From: Candidatus Woesearchaeota archaeon
Lineage (GTDB): Archaea > Nanobdellota > Nanobdellia > Woesearchaeales > ARS49
Direction of reading: 5' to 3'
DNA length: 64,000 bases
Assembly (NCBI GenBank): GCA_014729505.1
Contig: WJJS01000015.1
Span: 35,300-99,299 of the forward strand
Below the pieces are notes generated by a model. That model ran no database searches. It was given only the letters and a program-made list of their open reading frames with translations, and was not told the DNA's origin. Below are positions 41,501-48,473 of this stretch, piece after piece (the stretch's first letter is position 1; each line of letters opens with the position of its first letter). A program made the position numbers and the translations under genes.

Positions 41501-41574
41501 TGGGCCCGCGAAGATTTGAACTCCGGACCTCACGATTATCAGTCGTGCGCTCCACCAGGCTAAGCTACGGGCCC
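41501..41574 (-). tRNA. tRNA-Ile (GAU)
   Basis: Acceptor GGGCCCG/CGGGCCC, anticodon stem CACGA/TCGTG, loop CTGATAA, T arm CGGAG-TTCAAAT-CTTCG, discriminator A. Confidence 0.85.
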
Positions 41575-41614: not shown

Positions 41615-42433
41615 TTACTCGTCATACACGGTCCTATCATTGTCGTCGAGCGCCACAGTTCTAGCAAGCTCTTTGTTAATACTAAACTCTTTTCCAAGAT
41701 CGGGTAACGAAAACGAAGAGAGACGGGCAACCACTCTTTCAATAACCTTTATTTTTGCTGCGCGGCGCACGGTACGCTTTGAATCATCACCAATATTTTC
41801 CAAGCGATTATCGCTGATAATCAGAACTGCACAAGCGCGCACACCAATATCCTCTGCGCGCGCATACAACGCTGCCACTTCCATCTCCAGACTATCAGGA
41901 TTAATTTTTTTATAGAACGGATTATTGTGAGGAAGCTGCAAGGTCACCGCAGGAACAGTAATATTAACGCCCTTATGCAGCGGGATGTGGTCCCGCAAAC
42001 AATCATACACCTTGTTCAGTAACTCCTTATCAGGCCGATCAACATGACGATCAGGAGTAATTGCATGATACAACCCGTGGAAATGAAACGCTTCAACAGG
42101 CAACACAACAGAACCGACAGGCACGTCATGAAAACCAAACGCGTACCCAATGAAAATAATGTTACGACAACCCCCATCATGCATCTCAGTCATCACATCA
42201 ACAACAGCAGGAGCGCCATACACGTTACTGACAAGCGGATAATACTTTCCATCCTTTTTGACCAAATGACCATGATACACTGCATCTTTTGAAGAAACAA
42301 CCTCATCAAAAAATCCAAGTACCTGTTGTTCAAACTCCGGCGAATTCGTCCCGGCAAGAATAATACCGACATCTTCAAAACTGTCCTTTCCAAATAATGA
42401 TTTTGCCCACGTTCCCATAACGAAAGCACTCAC
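41615..42433 (-). CDS. nucleoside phosphorylase family protein (PNP/UDP/MTAP-like)
   Basis: C-terminal EMEVAALYARAEDIGVRACAVLIISD matches the PNP_UDP_1 family pattern. Confidence 0.55.
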   Translation of the reverse strand: MSAFVMGTWAKSLFGKDSFEDVGIILAGTNSPEFEQQVLGFFDEVVSSKDAVYHGHLVKKDGKYYPLVSNVYGAPAVVDVMTEMHDGGCRNIIFIGYAFGFHDVPVGSVVLPVEAFHFHGLYHAITPDRHVDRPDKELLNKVYDCLRDHIPLHKGVNITVPAVTLQLPHNNPFYKKINPDSLEMEVAALYARAEDIGVRACAVLIISDNRLENIGDDSKRTVRRAAKIKVIERVVARLSSFSLPDLGKEFSINKELARTVALDDNDRTVYDE

Positions 42434-42505
42434 AATACCTGTATAAAAAGTTTATGACCTGAGGGCGTAACTGGACATGCGCCCATAAGGTTTAAAAGCT
42501 AACAA

Positions 42506-44011
42506 TTGATGTGTGAGCATATGATTTCAACGATAGCTGCGCCGACGACAGATCCAGTACTCAATCTTGCACTTGACACGGTGCGACAAGGAAAACAAGC
42601 GCTCGTCTTTGTAAACACCAAGCGATCGGCAGAAAAAGTAGCTGAAGAGATCAGTAAAAGAATTGAAGGCAAAGCATACAACGCACTAGCAGAAAAAGTT
42701 CTTGGAGCATTGTCAAAACCAACAAAACAATGCAAACGATTAGCTGCAATCATCAAAAAAGGAGTGGCCTTTCACCACGCAGGACTTGCCAGTGCGCAAA
42801 AACACCTGATAGAAGACACTTTCCGTGAAGGAAAAGTCAGCATTATTTGTTGCACACCGACATTGGCTGCAGGACTCAACCTACCAGCGTACCGCGCTAT
42901 CATACGAGATCTTAAACGATATGCAGGACGATTTGGCATGCGATTTATTCCCGTCCTTGAATACCACCAAATGGCAGGGCGGGCAGGACGACCTGGCTAT
43001 GATGATCACGGCGAAGCAATTATTGTTGCCACTGCACAAGCAGAAGCAGACGACATCTATGACGAATATATTTGCGGCGAACCTGAAAACATCCAATCAA
43101 AACTCAACGTTGAACCGGTCATGCGCACGTATTTATTATCACTTATCTCGTCAAAAATCATCCAAACGGATGATCAAATACTTGATTTTTTCAAAGATAC
43201 GTTTTGGGCATACCAGTACGAAGATATGGCACGACTCGAGGACACCATATACAAAACATTATCTGTATTGTTGAAATGGCAGTTCTTACTTGAACAAGAC
43301 GGGAAATACCGCGCAACAGCAATCGGACACCGCGTAGCACAACTCTATCTCGACCCGCTAACCGCACATCATATCGTCAAAGGCATCAAACGATCACCAA
43401 CAGTAGCACTGCGACCAGTGAGCTTTATACAACTCGTCTGTCACACCAATGAAATGTGGCCATTACTCTCAGTGAAATCAAAAGAATACGAACTAGTACA
43501 ACAAAAAGTAGTTGAATGGGAAAACCAATTACTTGACAAAGAACCAAGCATGTTTGAACTCGATTACGAAGACTGGCTTAAAAGCATCAAGACAAGCCTG
43601 CTCTTTTTGGACTGGATCGATGAGCACAGCGAAAACTATCTCCTCGAAACCTACAATGTTCGACCGGGAGAACTCAAAGCAAAACTAGACAAAGCAGAAT
43701 GGTTATTGTATGGCATGTCGGAACTCTCCATACTCCTTGATCGCCACGATCTCGTGTCTCACATTAGCAAAGTACGCATACGACTCAAAAACGGCGTGCG
43801 AGAAGAACTGTTGCCATTATTAAAACTCAAAGGAGTGGGACGCGTACGAGCACGACAACTCTTTAGACACGGAATAAAAATTCCATCAGATCTGATCAAA
43901 GCAAAAGCCACGCTTCCCCGACTCTTAGGACCAAAAATAGCCAAGAACTTATTATCGCAATTAGGACATGAAATGGATACAAACACAGGACGGCTCGCTG
44001 ACTTTACATAG
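42506..44011 (+). CDS. Hel308/Ski2-type helicase, C-terminal half only (RecA2, winged helix, ratchet, HhH domains)
   Basis: Helicase motifs IV-VI (FHHAGL, QMAGRAGR) followed by WH/ratchet and a C-terminal HhH region; no Walker A/DEAH RecA1 domain, and only 72 bp of non-coding DNA lie upstream. Confidence 0.75.
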   Translation: MMCEHMISTIAAPTTDPVLNLALDTVRQGKQALVFVNTKRSAEKVAEEISKRIEGKAYNALAEKVLGALSKPTKQCKRLAAIIKKGVAFHHAGLASAQKHLIEDTFREGKVSIICCTPTLAAGLNLPAYRAIIRDLKRYAGRFGMRFIPVLEYHQMAGRAGRPGYDDHGEAIIVATAQAEADDIYDEYICGEPENIQSKLNVEPVMRTYLLSLISSKIIQTDDQILDFFKDTFWAYQYEDMARLEDTIYKTLSVLLKWQFLLEQDGKYRATAIGHRVAQLYLDPLTAHHIVKGIKRSPTVALRPVSFIQLVCHTNEMWPLLSVKSKEYELVQQKVVEWENQLLDKEPSMFELDYEDWLKSIKTSLLFLDWIDEHSENYLLETYNVRPGELKAKLDKAEWLLYGMSELSILLDRHDLVSHISKVRIRLKNGVREELLPLLKLKGVGRVRARQLFRHGIKIPSDLIKAKATLPRLLGPKIAKNLLSQLGHEMDTNTGRLADFT

Positions 44012-44600
44012 CGAACAATACGACGAGACTTTGCATTCTTTAAGTGGTGCAAAAGAAGAAGCCATAAAAAAATACGTCGAGCCATGCATGATTTCAGGTC
44101 ACACAAACATTACTATTCTTGATATTTGTTTTGGTCTTGGGTACAATAGCGCAGCAGCACTTGATGCAAGACGTGCAGGTAAGACAAGCATTGTAGCGAT
44201 TGAAAACGATGAGACTATCCTGCAACAAGTCCTCAACATGGACTATCCTTTTTCAAGTCACGAAATGCTCTGTCACGCTATACGACAAGGATCATATGAG
44301 GATCAACACGTATCCCTACAACTTGTAGTAGGCGATGTCCGATCAGTGGTACCAACATTACCATGTACTTTTGATGCTGTCTTTTTCGATCCGTTCTCGC
44401 CAAAAAAATGTCCAGAACTATGGACAACAACACTGTTTGCTCAGGTTTTTCGCGTCATGAAACCGGGAGCAGTACTGGCAACATACAGTTGTGCGCGCAG
44501 CGTACGAGAAGCGATGATCAGTGCAGGATTTCACGTACGCGACGGTCCATGTGTTGGACGAAAAAGTCCGGCAACCATAGCAATTAAACCCAGTGAGTAA
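43968..44600 (+). CDS. SAM-dependent methyltransferase, MnmC-like (DUF752)
   Basis: FFDPFSPKKCPELW motif characteristic of the MnmC methyltransferase domain. Confidence 0.5.
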   Translation: MKWIQTQDGSLTLHSEQYDETLHSLSGAKEEAIKKYVEPCMISGHTNITILDICFGLGYNSAAALDARRAGKTSIVAIENDETILQQVLNMDYPFSSHEMLCHAIRQGSYEDQHVSLQLVVGDVRSVVPTLPCTFDAVFFDPFSPKKCPELWTTTLFAQVFRVMKPGAVLATYSCARSVREAMISAGFHVRDGPCVGRKSPATIAIKPSE

Positions 44601-44766: not shown

Positions 44767-44858
44767 GCCCGAGTAGTATAGTCTGGATAGTACGCACGGT
44801 TGCGGAAGAATACTTTTGCAAAATCCGTGTAACCGGGGTTCGAATCCTCGCTCGGGCA
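44767..44858 (+). tRNA. tRNA-Arg (GCG) with an 18-nt intron at 37/38
   Basis: Acceptor GCCCGAG/CTCGGGC, anticodon stem CACGG/CCGTG, loop TTGCGG|intron 44806-44823|T, T arm CGGGG-TTCGAAT-CCTCG, discriminator A. Confidence 0.7.
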
Positions 44859-45100
44859 TGTTTTACTTGTTAGATTTTCTTTGTTTTTCTATGGCTCGTC
44901 TTCGAACCCGGGTTCGTCACCTCGAAATCTGGGATTTCGCGGACCTCGAACACCTGTGGTGTTCAAGGAATCCTCGCTCGGGCATACTTACATTGCCTTT
45001 TGGGCTTTGTTTTGTTTTTCTATGGCTCGTCTTCGAACCCGGGTTCGTCACCTCGAAATCTGCGATTTCGCGAACCTGTTAGGCTGGAGAAAACACCAAT
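44859..45100. repeat. two tandem ~130-bp units downstream of tRNA-Arg, each with a ~70-bp conserved core (palindrome CGAACCCGGGTTCG plus a 7-bp-stem hairpin) and a partial copy of the tRNA-Arg 3' end
   Basis: Cores 44880-44945 and 45006-45075 differ at 2 positions; 44967-44983 gaatcctcgctcgggca duplicates the tRNA 3' end (44842-44858); hairpins CGAAATC-TGG-GATTTCG (44921-44938) and CGAAATC-TGC-GATTTCG (45051-45068). Confidence 0.7.
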
Positions 45101-45106
45101 ACAAAA

Positions 45107-46861
45107 TTAGGATCTGCCGCGCTGTTTGTTGTACAATTCTTCGACAAGATCAAGATCAGAACTATCCTCCACGCCGCGATCCGCACGCAACGCGAGAAAA
45201 CGAGGAAAACGCAACGCATAACCACTGGAATACGTAGGTGACTTTTGGATTTCCTCATACGCCACCTCGATGACGACAGAAGGATTCACTACCACTTCTT
45301 TACCGGTCTCTTTAACAATGAGAGGTTTGAGCAATTCAGTCATCTCTGCAAACGAAAAACCCTCCTCAGGCTTTTCCTTTAGACCCGTTGCTACACGTCC
45401 AATCTCAACAAGATCCCCATTGGCATTGCGCACAGCAATACGAAAACTACTAATCCAATGAGCGCGCTTACCCTCGCCCCATTCGCCACCGACAATAACA
45501 ACATCAAGCGTTTCCATCACAGGCTTAAGTTTTACACCATACCCTACGCGTTTGCCGGGCTTATACATTCCCTCGATGTTTTTAATCATTAACCCCTCAT
45601 TACCACTCTTTAACGATTCCTTGTAAAAATCATCAATCTTTTTTGCATCATCAGTGACAAGCTGATCAATCACACGAATCAAGGGTTTGTTCACCACAAC
45701 CTTAAGGAGTTTTTTGCGACGCTTCTCAAACGATTCTTTGATCAACGTTTTACCATCGAGATACATTAGATCGAACATGTTCAGTTCCACAGGCAATTTC
45801 TTAGCAAGCTCTTCAATATCATACTTACGTTTAATACGCTGAGAAATATTTTGAAACGGCAAATACTTGCCGGTCTTGACACTAAAACCGACCGCTTCAG
45901 AATCAATAATACAAGAAGAAACCTTAATGTTTTTTTTCACTAACGCAATGAGTTCAGGAAATTGCTTGGATACCTCTTCAAGACGACGAGTAAACATCCA
46001 CACCTTATCAGCATTTTTATGAATCTGCAAACGAAAACCATCAAACTTATACTCACAAGCAGCAGGACTACCAACCGTTTTCAACGCCTCTTCAATAGTC
46101 TCTGCCTTCGGATACAACATCACTTTAATAGGTTTACCCGGTGTAAGCTCAATAGAACTAAGACCTTTGCGACCTTTCTTTTCTAGTAATTCAGCAATCT
46201 TTGCAAAATCATTAGTCAAATTATACGCCTCTTCAACTTCATCAACGGCCTGCGCGTAATCTTTTCGATCAGTACCAAAGACAAGAGCATTCTTCTCCTT
46301 GTCATAAGACACCTGTATTTCCTTTGACAAATACGCCCAGACAATCGCATCACGCATCACCCCCTCGCCAAGACCAGTGCGCATATCACCAATGACCGTA
46401 CGCACCAAATACTTCGCTTCCAAAGGGCTGGCACTGGACAACAGTTCAGCAATAATCTTTACCTTACGATCAACAGTACCCTGACCTTCAAGCTCTGCAA
46501 GCTTTTCAAGATTCTTCTGCACTTTATCAACAGTAAGTGATTGTGAAAACAGTGTTGATTGAGTCTTCTTCTTAGTTAACTCTTCAGCAACCTCGCCAAT
46601 ATCGCCAAGCTTTTTCCAACGCATCTCAATCTTGGCAATGGATTCTCCTGTGCTCACACTCAATGCCTTAAGCAACAAACGGGAAGCCACGCCCATTTTA
46701 CGAGAATCCCAATCAGGAAACACCTTACCCTCAATAAGATAAATAATATGACAACCGCCCTTATGAGACTGCAAAAACTCGCCGACAAGAACAGTCTTTT
46801 CAAGACGTTTAGACGTCTTCTCAAGAGACGCATAGAGTTTTACAAGATCAAGATAGTCCAT
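45107..46861 (-). CDS. lig: ATP-dependent DNA ligase
   Basis: Adenylation motif KxDGxR (EYKFDGFRLQIHK), OB and DNA-binding domains; start at the internal Met (46861), since the ORF-track N-terminal extension is hydrophobic and non-ligase. Confidence 0.9.
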   Translation of the reverse strand: MDYLDLVKLYASLEKTSKRLEKTVLVGEFLQSHKGGCHIIYLIEGKVFPDWDSRKMGVASRLLLKALSVSTGESIAKIEMRWKKLGDIGEVAEELTKKKTQSTLFSQSLTVDKVQKNLEKLAELEGQGTVDRKVKIIAELLSSASPLEAKYLVRTVIGDMRTGLGEGVMRDAIVWAYLSKEIQVSYDKEKNALVFGTDRKDYAQAVDEVEEAYNLTNDFAKIAELLEKKGRKGLSSIELTPGKPIKVMLYPKAETIEEALKTVGSPAACEYKFDGFRLQIHKNADKVWMFTRRLEEVSKQFPELIALVKKNIKVSSCIIDSEAVGFSVKTGKYLPFQNISQRIKRKYDIEELAKKLPVELNMFDLMYLDGKTLIKESFEKRRKKLLKVVVNKPLIRVIDQLVTDDAKKIDDFYKESLKSGNEGLMIKNIEGMYKPGKRVGYGVKLKPVMETLDVVIVGGEWGEGKRAHWISSFRIAVRNANGDLVEIGRVATGLKEKPEEGFSFAEMTELLKPLIVKETGKEVVVNPSVVIEVAYEEIQKSPTYSSGYALRFPRFLALRADRGVEDSSDLDLVEELYNKQRGRS

Positions 46862-46913
46862 AATCGCTAACAATAATGATTTGTTAATAAGAGTTGTTGT
46901 TTGAAGAGTTGTC

Positions 46914-48473
46914 TTGATAGCAAAAGTTATTATAGTTGTCAGTCCCCTTAAGAAAAAAATGTTGCACAAAAGAGGTAGAACACAACATACTGCAGGAATA
47001 CTGTTCTTGTTTATCATCGTGCTAGCGGCAAATGCCGTCATAGCGTTTCATGGTTCTGAATGTACTACTTTGAGAGATTGTCCAACGTATTGTGTGCAAA
47101 ACATCATTTACGAAGAACCGTCCTGTGTTGAAGGGTATTGCGAATACCATGTTCGCCAGTGTCCTGATAACGAATATTGTTATGTAGAATCCTACTGGCC
47201 AACTGCAGTATACCCGGATCAGGCCCGAACAATTGGAGGACAGCCCTTTTTAAGCGCAACAGAAGCTACTTTTGCATGCAAACCTAAAACAGGAACCACT
47301 TGCGGCAATTTTCGCCTGAATGAGGGCGAAGAATGCGATCCTCCATCCGGATTAGGACAATCCGCTCAATGTGTCATCACTTTAGCAGATCAAGAATTTG
47401 TTGATGAGTACTATGATCAAAAGATGAGCTACACTGATAGCGTGGTATTAGCGCGAATGCAACATTACGGGTGTAATGATCAATGCAAATGCTTCGCTTT
47501 TTTCTGTGGTGACGAAATCGTATCAGATTTTCACACCGCTCCCTCGCCTAAGTACAGAGACGAACCATGGTACGATGAGGGCCTTGAGAAGGATATTGAT
47601 AATGAAGAATGCGACCCTCCGGGAACTCCCCACCCTACAAATCCATCACTGCGCTGTGATGCATACTGTCAATGGAATGAAATCGGTCAAGAATCAGTTC
47701 CGCCTGAATGTCATCGTAACGAAGACTGCGCAAAACGATTTCCTGCTAGGTGCAAAAACGAATTAGAGCTCACCATTCCCTGGTGTAAGGACAGTACATG
47801 CACACAAGGAATCTATGAATGTGATGATGATCAGGAATGCAGAAATGAACCAGAACCGGGATGTTATATCAGAGAATCGCGACCAGCAGAAGAACCTGCA
47901 ACAGAAACAACTTCTGCCTTCCCGCAAACAGTTGAAAAATTACAAAAAGCAATGAAAAACAATACCAAATTTTCTTACCGCGGCATAGAACTGCCCAAAG
48001 GAAACTATCAATTTATTATCACAGACAATGCTGCGTTCGTCGAAAGAAAGTATGCGCTTGACATCACAGAGACAAGCCTGTTATTAACCACCGGTCCTCG
48101 ATCCACTACTCTGGTAACCTCCTCAAAAGACGCGCAGCACGTTCTTGATCTCCTCAATGAAGAATCGTACTTTGTCGCAGCAACATTTGCACAACGGCAC
48201 TTTATACAGAATTCGCCACGTCTGGTCGACAATATAGAGGCAGCAATAACGCGAACACTATCTGCAAACCTCGAACGCCATCAAAACTCAATACTCAGAG
48301 CTCAAGACGTTCGCAATCAGGAACTCCCGCTAGCAAGCGCGGCGATAGAACAAACTACGAGTTTCATAAGAACTGCATTTACTCCCGTTCTCGCTCTGCC
48401 TGATCTTATTAGTAACATTCGCGAACAAATCCAATTACCTGCATCCTTAAGAGGGACTCATGAAATCATCTAA
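46914..48473 (+). CDS. secreted cysteine-rich protein with repeated GEECDPP motifs
   Basis: N-terminal hydrophobic signal/anchor; about 40 Cys; two ...EECDPP... repeats resembling the myxococcal cysteine-rich repeat. Confidence 0.5.
   Translation: MIAKVIIVVSPLKKKMLHKRGRTQHTAGILFLFIIVLAANAVIAFHGSECTTLRDCPTYCVQNIIYEEPSCVEGYCEYHVRQCPDNEYCYVESYWPTAVYPDQARTIGGQPFLSATEATFACKPKTGTTCGNFRLNEGEECDPPSGLGQSAQCVITLADQEFVDEYYDQKMSYTDSVVLARMQHYGCNDQCKCFAFFCGDEIVSDFHTAPSPKYRDEPWYDEGLEKDIDNEECDPPGTPHPTNPSLRCDAYCQWNEIGQESVPPECHRNEDCAKRFPARCKNELELTIPWCKDSTCTQGIYECDDDQECRNEPEPGCYIRESRPAEEPATETTSAFPQTVEKLQKAMKNNTKFSYRGIELPKGNYQFIITDNAAFVERKYALDITETSLLLTTGPRSTTLVTSSKDAQHVLDLLNEESYFVAATFAQRHFIQNSPRLVDNIEAAITRTLSANLERHQNSILRAQDVRNQELPLASAAIEQTTSFIRTAFTPVLALPDLISNIREQIQLPASLRGTHEII

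What the first reader, a model, noticed from the sequence alone, without database searches (positions are those of the whole stretch)
42506..44011. Stand-alone C-terminal half of a Hel308/Ski2-type helicase with no RecA1 domain
The ORF begins at helicase motif IV (FHHAGL, QMAGRAGR) and carries WH, ratchet and HhH domains. The ATP-binding RecA1 domain (Walker A, DEAH) is absent, and only 72 bp of non-coding DNA separate it from the divergent upstream gene. Either the gene is split, as in some nanoarchaeal genomes, with the N-terminal half encoded elsewhere, or it is a decaying pseudogene.
Basis: partly seen in the sequence, partly recalled or inferred. Interest (0 to 1): 0.55.

Follow-up and report, generated by a model that had tools for sequence, protein, structure and literature searches.

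The report
C-terminal subunit of two-piece Hel308 helicase
This gene is the intact, conserved back two-thirds of a Hel308 DNA-repair helicase that a large group of tiny DPANN archaea (Woesearchaeota) encode as two separate genes, with the ATP-binding front third encoded elsewhere; it is not a decaying pseudogene.

Summary
The ORF at 42506/42521–44011 encodes Hel308 domains 2–5 (RecA2 with motifs IV–VI, winged helix, ratchet, HhH) and no RecA1. A divergent phosphorylase gene lies 72 bp upstream.

It is not a pseudogene or a frameshift. All 120 closest database relatives are 459–556 aa with the same architecture, and the catalytic motifs are invariant. A TATA box sits about 30 nt before the ATG in roughly 38 of 54 relatives, including the window.

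A matching family of 219–228 aa RecA1-only proteins exists in the same taxa. On one Hel308 profile the N-half covers positions 1–217 and this ORF covers 223–710. Each half forms a single clade with a shared full-length sister, which points to one ancient fission.

The two genes are never within 10 kb of each other, and each keeps its own conserved neighbourhood. No intein is present at the seam.

Best reading: this is the C-subunit of a non-covalently assembled two-subunit Hel308.

Weak point: I could not show the partner in this genome. The only co-occurrence evidence is one exact N/C pair sharing two sequencing runs.

I found no published description of this split. Interest is moderate.

The parts
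42521..44011 (+). Gene for the C-terminal subunit of a split Hel308/Hjm helicase. It is 496 aa from ATG 42521. Alternative starts are TTG 42506 (501 aa) and ATG 42509 (500 aa, the NCBI call MBD3319027.1).
   Evidence: ORF. Pfam domains. PDB matches Hjm 2zj2 (E=2.4e-93) and Hel308 2p6r/2va8. NCBIfam NF002654 positions 223-710. AlphaFold pLDDT 84 and Foldseek top hits Hjm/Hel308. Start at 42521 is inferred from relatives' N-termini and the TATA box at -30.
42491..42497 (+). TATA-box-like element TTTAAAA, 30 nt upstream of ATG 42521. It is the probable promoter of a leaderless transcript.
   Evidence: A TATA-like motif lies at -27 to -31 in about 38 of 54 stand-alone C-half loci. Sequence checked. 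Function is inferred from archaeal promoter architecture and was not tested.
42578..42997 (+). RecA2 domain (Helicase_C). It carries motif IV (42596-42634), IVa (42770-42787), V (42854-42889), the hairpin region (42911-42961) and motif VI with the arginine fingers (42968-42997).
   Evidence: The motifs are invariant or nearly so in 25 C-halves.
43064..43288 (+). Winged-helix domain (HTH_61).
   Evidence: E=5.6e-5, just under the Pfam cut-off. The region aligns to Hjm.
43421..43795 (+). Ratchet domain (archaeal helicase domain 4).
   Evidence: E=1e-30. pLDDT is above 90 in the model.
43814..43963 (+). C-terminal helix-hairpin-helix domain (domain 5).
   Evidence: HHH_5, E=1.1e-4. GxGRVRAR is conserved.
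41615..42433 (-). Context: divergent upstream gene, a PNP_UDP_1 phosphorylase. It has its own TATA box (42442-42447, read on the - strand) 29 nt before ATG 42418. It rules out an upstream RecA1 exon.
41501..41574 (-). Context: tRNA-Ile(GAT). In several relatives this tRNA lies directly upstream of the C-half gene.
   Evidence: Relatives L001, L028, L036 and L044.
43968..44600 (+). Context: Methyltransf_30 gene that overlaps the C-half's 3' end by 44 nt. It is a recurrent downstream neighbour in relatives.
   Evidence: Relatives L002, L026, L110 and others.
44767..44858 (+). Context: intron-containing tRNA, probably Arg(GCG). It matches the tRNA-Arg(GCG) that follows the C-half in about 9 relatives.
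   Evidence: Rfam 49.2 bits. Synteny. The anticodon was read by eye and is unverified.
45107..47041 (-). Context: ATP-dependent DNA ligase, a recurrent neighbour of the C-half gene.
   Evidence: window, L001, L002, L005, L026, L031, L033. In L182 it occurs together with UvrABC.

Best explanation
The ORF is the C-terminal subunit (most of RecA2, plus the winged helix, ratchet and HhH domains) of a Hel308/Hjm-type DNA helicase.

In a large clade of Woesearchaeota one ancient fission split this helicase into two independently transcribed genes. The partner is a ~220 aa protein that carries RecA1 (Q motif and motifs I-III) plus the first beta-hairpin beyond it. It is encoded at a distant, separately conserved locus next to FtsY, prefoldin and PRPP synthetase.

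Inferred mechanism:
- The two proteins associate non-covalently.
- The N-subunit's terminal hairpin and RecA1 dock onto the C-subunit and rebuild the ATP site. Walker A/B come from one chain and the motif VI arginine fingers from the other.
- This also rebuilds the ring that Hel308 closes around single-stranded DNA.
- The complex then acts as a 3'-5' repair and fork-restart helicase.

Shown: the domain content, the conservation, the complementary N-half family, the exact tiling, the single origin, the separate promoters and the absence of an intein.

Inferred: the physical assembly, the activity, and the presence of the partner in this genome.
For: 1. Conservation. All 120 best hits are 459-556 aa, lack PF00270, and are 51-70% identical. 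About 53 of 80 reference-genome loci have the same short form, including the complete genomes CP060218.1 and OZ242164.1.

2. Partner family. A profile of full-length N-parts retrieves 115 stand-alone proteins of 219-244 aa among its 120 best hits. They are named DEAD/DEAH box helicase from Woesearchaeota or Nanoarchaeota. All RecA1 motifs are invariant, and the proteins share a sharply conserved end...WRPVKLxxGxYxxxExEF.

3. Tiling. On NF002654 the N-half covers positions 1-217 (291 bits) and the window ORF covers 223-710 (478 bits). The full-length sister covers 21-711 (725 bits).

4. Single origin. In NJ trees all 70 sampled N-halves form one pure clade, and 69 of 70 sampled C-halves form another. 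The one exception is a gene truncated by a contig end. The full-length protein P0288 is in the sister group in both trees.

5. Break site. In the AlphaFold model of the full-length sister (pLDDT 88), the break falls in the loop at 218-224, after the hairpin at 205-217.

6. Independent leaderless promoters are present for both halves.

7. Co-occurrence. The exact N-half P0195 and the exact C-half P0353 share runs ERR10503189 and ERR10503192. Their contigs are each other's best composition match.

8. Fold and sequence are closest to Hjm/Hel308.
Against: The N-half was not found in this window. The rest of this genome could not be searched, because the protein is not in the contig index.

No assembly was found in which both halves were seen together, despite look-ups and accession comparisons. 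The run-level co-occurrence could reflect two co-occurring populations. The composition match is only marginally better than matches to other low-GC loci.

Assembly of the two proteins and helicase activity are untested. The C-half alone scores below the NCBIfam equivalog cut-offs, although the full-length DPANN sister does too.
Confidence: 0.85

Rival explanations
1. Stand-alone C-half with a function of its own. It would act as a RecA2-WH-ratchet-HhH DNA-binding or adaptor protein that works without a RecA1 partner. The ~220 aa RecA1 family would then belong to other genomes or serve another partner.
For: The two genes are never linked: no N-half lies within 10 kb of any of ~54 C-half loci, and the reverse also holds. 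The two have different conserved neighbourhoods. Co-occurrence in one genome is not directly shown.
Against: Motifs IV, V and VI, including the arginine fingers, are invariant. They only make sense at a RecA1-RecA2 ATP site. The two families abut to within 5 profile positions. They share taxonomy, the single-clade pattern and a sister lineage. One exact pair shares sequencing runs.
Confidence: 0.07
2. The two halves are joined covalently, either by a split intein (as in the Nanoarchaeum DNA polymerase) or by RNA trans-splicing.
For: Inteins do occur in this gene in some relatives: L064 has a LAGLIDADG intein inside RecA2. DPANN archaea trans-splice tRNA halves.
Against: There are no spare residues. 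220 + 496-500 aa equals the full-length 702-732 aa. The window ORF and the N-halves give no intein Pfam hit. N-halves stop 1-3 residues after the conserved EF. Both mRNAs appear to be leaderless with a TATA box at -30, which leaves no 5' leader for RNA joining.
Confidence: 0.03
3. Decaying pseudogene remnant of a full-length Hel308.
For: RecA1 is absent and nothing related lies nearby.
Against: The frame is intact over 500 aa. The boundaries are identical in thousands of homologues at 51-70% identity. Motifs are invariant and the promoter is conserved.
Confidence: 0.01
4. Sequencing or assembly artefact: a frameshift or misassembly hides the N-terminal domain.
For: This is a MAG-derived contig.
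Against: The upstream DNA is a divergent phosphorylase gene plus a ~100 bp double promoter, and no frame shows RecA1 similarity. The same gene boundary occurs in more than 50 independent assemblies, including closed genomes.
Confidence: 0.01

Closest known systems
Archaeal Hel308 / Hjm helicase (PDB 2p6r, 2va8, 2zj2; NCBIfam NF040935, NF002654)
   Same: Domains 2-5 are present in the same order. Motifs IV-VI, the ratchet and the HhH are present. These are the best sequence and fold matches. Neighbourhoods with DNA ligase or UvrABC fit a repair role.
   Different: The single ~700 aa polypeptide is replaced by two gene products. RecA1 and the first hairpin beyond it sit on a separate ~220 aa protein encoded elsewhere.
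Split protein genes of Nanoarchaeum equitans / Nst1: reverse gyrase NEQ318/434 and 'large helicase-related protein' NEQ003/409
   Same: These are DPANN archaea. An information-processing enzyme is encoded as two distant ORFs that must assemble after translation. The splits are lineage-specific and derived. The split reverse gyrase was studied biochemically by Capp et al. 2010, a paper I know only as a reference cited in PMC3491384.
   Different: A different gene is involved: Hel308 is not in the published list. The lineage is also different (mesophilic Woesearchaeota). The break lies just after the first hairpin following RecA1, not between whole enzymatic modules.
Split diphthamide synthase Dph1/2 in Woesearchaeota, Pacearchaeota and others
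   Same: It is another conserved gene fission reported in the same taxa. Fragments of 84-86 aa are visible in the relatives' loci L001 and L002.
   Different: The enzyme is unrelated. It is cited only as evidence that fissions persist in this lineage.
Split-intein DNA polymerase of N. equitans (from my own knowledge; the split itself is listed)
   Same: Two distant half-genes encode a replication or repair enzyme.
   Different: There the halves carry intein fragments and are ligated. Here no intein sequence lies at the seam.

Membership tests
Hel308/Hjm (Ski2-like archaeal DNA helicase) | RecA2 domain with motifs IV, IVa, V and VI | tested here: met
Hel308/Hjm (Ski2-like archaeal DNA helicase) | Winged helix, ratchet (domain 4) and HhH (domain 5) following RecA2 | tested here: met
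   Pfam. Alignment to Hjm residues 229-678. Foldseek E=1.4e-31.
Hel308/Hjm (Ski2-like archaeal DNA helicase) | RecA1 domain (Q motif, Walker A, DExH, SAT) in the same polypeptide | tested here: not met
   No DEAD domain in the ORF, upstream of it, or elsewhere in the window. It is supplied in relatives by a separate ~220 aa protein.
Hel308/Hjm (Ski2-like archaeal DNA helicase) | Score above the NCBIfam equivalog cut-off | tested here: not met
   478 bits against a cut-off of 887 for NF002654. The full-length DPANN sister (725 bits) is also below it.
Hel308/Hjm (Ski2-like archaeal DNA helicase) | ATP-dependent 3'-5' DNA unwinding | not testable with these tools
   This needs biochemistry on the co-expressed halves.
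Naturally split (fissioned) protein gene of DPANN archaea | Two ORFs that together tile the single-gene homologue without overlap or a large gap | tested here: met
   Profile positions 1-217 plus 223-710. Lengths of 220 + ~500 aa against 702-732 aa.
Naturally split (fissioned) protein gene of DPANN archaea | Both halves encoded in the same genome | tested here: inconclusive
   An exact N/C pair shares two sequencing runs and has the best-matching composition. No single assembly was shown to hold both, and this genome was not searchable.
Naturally split (fissioned) protein gene of DPANN archaea | Both halves conserved under selection, with a lineage-specific single origin | tested here: met
Naturally split (fissioned) protein gene of DPANN archaea | Halves transcribed independently | tested here: met
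   A TATA-like box lies about 30 nt upstream of both gene types, and the loci are unlinked. This is a sequence signal only, with no expression data.
Split-intein / trans-spliced protein | Intein N- and C-fragments at the seam | tested here: not met
   No intein domains and no extra length.
Pseudogene | Disrupted frame, lost motifs and lack of conservation among relatives | tested here: not met

The most novel reading that the evidence does not exclude
The fission is more than tolerated damage. It turned Hel308 into a regulated two-subunit motor. The ATP site exists only when two separately transcribed proteins meet, so the cell (or a host-dependent life cycle) can control helicase activity through subunit supply. 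Alternatively, the small RecA1 subunit or the DNA-binding C-subunit may have additional partners or solo roles. That would explain why the split has been kept, with unlinked genes, across a whole order-level clade.
Probability: 0.1. Interest if true: 0.7.

Novelty: new variant of a known kind. Interest (0 to 1): 0.45.

Why it matters
Hel308 is close to universal in archaea and is the model for the human HELQ and POLQ helicase domains.

A natural, anciently fixed two-piece version has practical uses. It separates RecA1 from RecA2 and the ratchet, so it offers a ready-made system for studying how the two motor domains communicate.

It adds a widespread, mesophilic example to the short list of DPANN gene fissions.

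It also affects annotation. Thousands of database entries named 'helicase-related protein', 'hypothetical protein' or '220-aa DEAD/DEAH box helicase' are really two halves of one enzyme. Surveys that discard 'partial' sequences will wrongly score Woesearchaeota as lacking Hel308.

Tried and rejected
1. A Walker A + DExH regex scan of the window was too strict for Hel308's PTxxGKT. I replaced it with tblastn using 13 real N-halves.

2. PRPP-synthetase-like genes lie next to both halves, which suggested a shared ancestral locus or a duplication. They are paralogues at 30-37% identity, so I dropped the idea.

3. I tried to link the N and C loci by DNA overlap and by contig-length coincidences: P0104/P0185 at 2,708 bp and P0122/P0209 at 7,538 bp. 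Both were chance.

4. I compared GenBank accession neighbourhoods for N- and C-halves and found no pair from one assembly.

5. I paired a near-consensus C-profile search with the N-profile search. No contig was shared.

6. Scans of viral contigs for both halves found only distant giant-virus helicases.

7. The window protein is not in the contig index, so I could not walk along its contig.

8. A test for overlapping ends between the co-occurring N and C Logan contigs was negative.

9. The one stand-alone C-half outside the split clade (P0263) proved to be a full-length gene cut by its contig end.

10. I did not use the metagenome scan or the representative-protein search. I estimated their chance of giving same-contig evidence as low.

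Full report
**Observation.**
The ORF is real. It runs from 42506 (TTG) or 42509 (ATG) to 44011 on the + strand and is 501/500 aa. Pfam finds Helicase_C (residues 25-164), a winged helix (HTH_61, 187-261), archaeal helicase domain 4 (306-430, E=1e-30) and HHH_5 (437-486). It finds no DEAD or ResIII domain. Motifs IV, IVa, V and VI are all present. The gene upstream (41615-42433, - strand) is a divergent PNP_UDP_1 phosphorylase, and 72 bp separate the two longest ORFs. tblastn with 13 real Hel308 N-halves finds nothing in the 64 kb window, and the three upstream frames show no remnant.

**Not a pseudogene or an artefact.**
The identical protein is NCBI MBD3319027.1, 'hypothetical protein GF342_03910 [Candidatus Woesearchaeota archaeon]'. 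All 120 best database hits are 459-556 aa and lack PF00270. They cover 90-100% of the query at 51-70% identity and come from Woesearchaeota or Nanoarchaeota. A scan of reference genomes gave 80 loci. About 53 carry the same short form, including the complete genomes CP060218.1 and OZ242164.1 and a 1.3 Mb contig. Other DPANN (some Woesearchaeota, plus Pacearchaeota and Aenigmatarchaeota) and non-DPANN archaea carry an uninterrupted gene of 702-732 aa. In an alignment of 25 short forms the catalytic motifs are invariant or nearly so.

**The missing half exists as its own gene family.**
I built a profile from the N-terminal 223 residues of eight full-length DPANN proteins. It retrieved 5,197 proteins. 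Of the best 120, 115 are stand-alone proteins of 219-244 aa with only the DEAD domain, named 'DEAD/DEAH box helicase' from Woesearchaeota or Nanoarchaeota. They are very conserved (77% mean column identity). The Q motif, TPTASGKT, DE(I/V)H and SAT are invariant. All of them stop within a few residues of the same ...WRPVKLxxGxYxxxExEF end.

Against the 739-position NCBIfam Hel308-type model NF002654:
- the N-half P0197 covers positions 1-217 (291 bits);
- the window ORF covers positions 223-710 (478 bits);
- the full-length sister covers positions 21-711 (725 bits).

So the two families tile one helicase with a five-position seam and no spare length. That also leaves no room for split-intein fragments, and none are detected.

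**Where the break lies.**
The AlphaFold model of the full-length sister P0245 (pLDDT 88, pTM 0.84) shows a beta-hairpin at residues 205-212 and 215-217, a loop at 218-224, then the helix and strand of motif IV. N-halves end at the end of the hairpin and C-halves begin in the loop. From published Hel308 structures I infer that this hairpin belongs structurally to domain 2, so the N-subunit would complete the RecA2 fold in trans. I did not verify that from coordinates. The C-half alone models well (pLDDT 84). Its best matches are Hjm and Hel308 by fold (Foldseek E=1e-31 to 1e-29) and by sequence (2zj2, E=2.4e-93, chain residues 229-678).

**One ancient fission.**
In NJ trees that mix stand-alone halves with the matching parts of full-length proteins, all 70 sampled N-halves form one pure clade. 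69 of 70 sampled C-halves, including the window's, form another. The full-length protein P0288 lies in the sister group in both trees. The single exception, P0263, is a full-length gene cut off by its contig end. These are distance trees and therefore indicative only.

**Genomic organisation.**
The halves are unlinked. No N-half lies within 10 kb of any C-half locus. No C-half lies in the flanks (3-10 kb fetched) of the seven distinct N-half neighbourhoods examined.

- N-half position. In five of the seven neighbourhoods, from groundwater, aquifer and marine lineages, the order is (PAC2, enolase, His_Phos, GalT), N-half, then a convergent FtsY/SRP54, prefoldin, PRPP synthetase and ScpA.
- C-half position. 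It sits in a different recurrent setting: tRNA-Ile or tRNA-Asn upstream; Methyltransf_30 and/or a PRPP-synthetase paralogue and tRNA-Arg(GCG) downstream; DNA ligase nearby; and in one case UvrABC.
- The window follows the C-half pattern: tRNA-Ile (41501-41574), phosphorylase, C-half, Methyltransf_30, an intron-containing tRNA (44767-44858) and ligase (45107-47041).
- Of the N-locus marker genes, only Gins51 is in the window.

**Independent transcription.**
In about 38 of 54 C-half loci a TATA-like box lies 27-31 nt before the predicted ATG. In the window it is TTTAAAA at 42491-42497, 30 nt before ATG 42521. That ATG also matches the N-terminus of the closest relative, P0002. The true start is therefore probably 42521 (496 aa), on a leaderless mRNA. 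The N-half genes show the same signal. A transcript that starts at its own ATG has no leader for RNA-level joining.

**Do both halves occur in one genome?**
This is the weak point. The window's own genome could not be searched, because the protein is absent from the contig index. Look-ups and accession comparisons found no assembly in which both were seen.

The best evidence is one pair. The exact N-half P0195 and the exact C-half P0353 each occur only on six contigs of Logan assemblies from one run series. Both runs shown for the N-half (ERR10503189 and ERR10503192) are among the six that carry the C-half. The C contig is the best non-self tetranucleotide match of the N contigs among 80 loci (r=0.88-0.89). 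Other low-GC loci come close, so this is only supportive. The contig ends do not overlap.

**Mechanism (inferred).**
Two subunits assemble after translation. Walker A/B and motifs Ia-III come from the N-subunit. Motifs IV-VI (including the arginine fingers), the strand-separating hairpin region, the ratchet and the HhH come from the C-subunit. Together they rebuild the ATP site and the DNA-encircling ring of Hel308, a 3'-5' repair and fork-restart helicase. The invariance of motif VI in a protein that lacks its own Walker A is the strongest internal argument that a partner is used.

**Comparison and novelty.**
The published split genes of Nanoarchaeum and Nst1 include reverse gyrase and a 'large helicase-related protein' but not Hel308. 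The DPANN review lists reverse gyrase, tRNA synthetases and Dph1/2. A 2024 survey of archaeal Ski2-like helicases removed 53 'partial' sequences and does not mention a split. Full-text searches for Hel308 together with Woesearchaeota returned nothing. The library is incomplete, so absence is not proof.

I rate this as a new variant of a known kind: a known helicase in a known type of genome oddity, with an unusual break position and wide, ancient conservation. Interest is moderate at 0.45.

Noticed in passing
window 44767-44858 (+): An intron-containing tRNA (Rfam 49.2 bits, ~21 nt insertion in the anticodon loop) that ARAGORN missed. By eye the anticodon is GCG (Arg). That matches the tRNA-Arg(GCG) found downstream of the C-half in about 9 relatives.
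   Followed up: partly
window 44843-45077: A tandem duplication of a ~131 nt unit. The tRNA's 3' end (AATCCTCGCTCGGGCA) recurs at 44969-44984. An 81 nt repeat (44866-44946 and 44997-45077, 90% identical) holds the perfect palindrome CGAACCCGGGTTCG. There is no Rfam hit. It could be an integration scar, a terminator pair or a small RNA.
   Followed up: partly
window 42419-42520: A divergent promoter region. TATA-like boxes lie 29-30 nt before internal ATGs of both flanking genes (42442-42447 for the phosphorylase ATG at 42418; 42491-42497 for the helicase ATG at 42521). The longest-ORF starts (GTG 42433, TTG 42506) are therefore probably too long, and both mRNAs are probably leaderless.
   Followed up: partly
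L064:271-3450 (also L062, L068): Some Woesearchaeal C-half genes are ~1,050 aa because a full-size intein (Intein_splicing + LAGLIDADG_3, residues ~184-660) is inserted in the RecA2 domain. So the already split helicase subunit also hosts an intein in some lineages.
   Followed up: partly
L073:4880-6835 (also L075, L076): These C-halves are ~620-650 aa. They have an extra ~85-100 aa between the winged helix (ending at 314) and domain 4 (starting at 445). Pfam gives no hit for the insert.
   Followed up: no
L001:5830-6090 and L002:8221-8475: Short ORFs of 84-86 aa hit Diphthamide_syn. This fits the split Dph1/2 reported for Woesearchaeota, a second gene fission in the same genomes.
   Followed up: no
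L002:13556-15088 (GCA_019322895.1): A complete bacterial-type sigma-70 gene (regions 1.1, 1.2, 2, 3 and 4; 510 aa) lies inside a 697 kb Woesearchaeal contig. It could be horizontal transfer or a chimeric assembly.
   Followed up: no
L182:2181-11153: In one population the C-half gene lies next to uvrB-uvrC-uvrA, an RNase H-like gene and DNA ligase. DNA ligase also lies within a few kb in the window and in at least six other relatives. This is a DNA-repair neighbourhood.
   Followed up: partly
L182-L187 starts; L180/L181 ends: All six Logan contigs with C-half P0353 begin exactly 92 nt upstream of the gene. Both shown contigs with N-half P0195 end exactly 1,349 nt downstream of theirs. These are reproducible assembly breakpoints (repeats or strain variation) next to both half-genes. 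The ends do not overlap each other.
   Followed up: partly
record titles (e.g. L004, L005, L007, L029): Many reference MAGs that carry this Woesearchaeal gene are titled 'uncultured Methanosarcinales archaeon' or 'Parcubacteria group bacterium'. The taxonomic labels in the source records are probably wrong.
   Followed up: no
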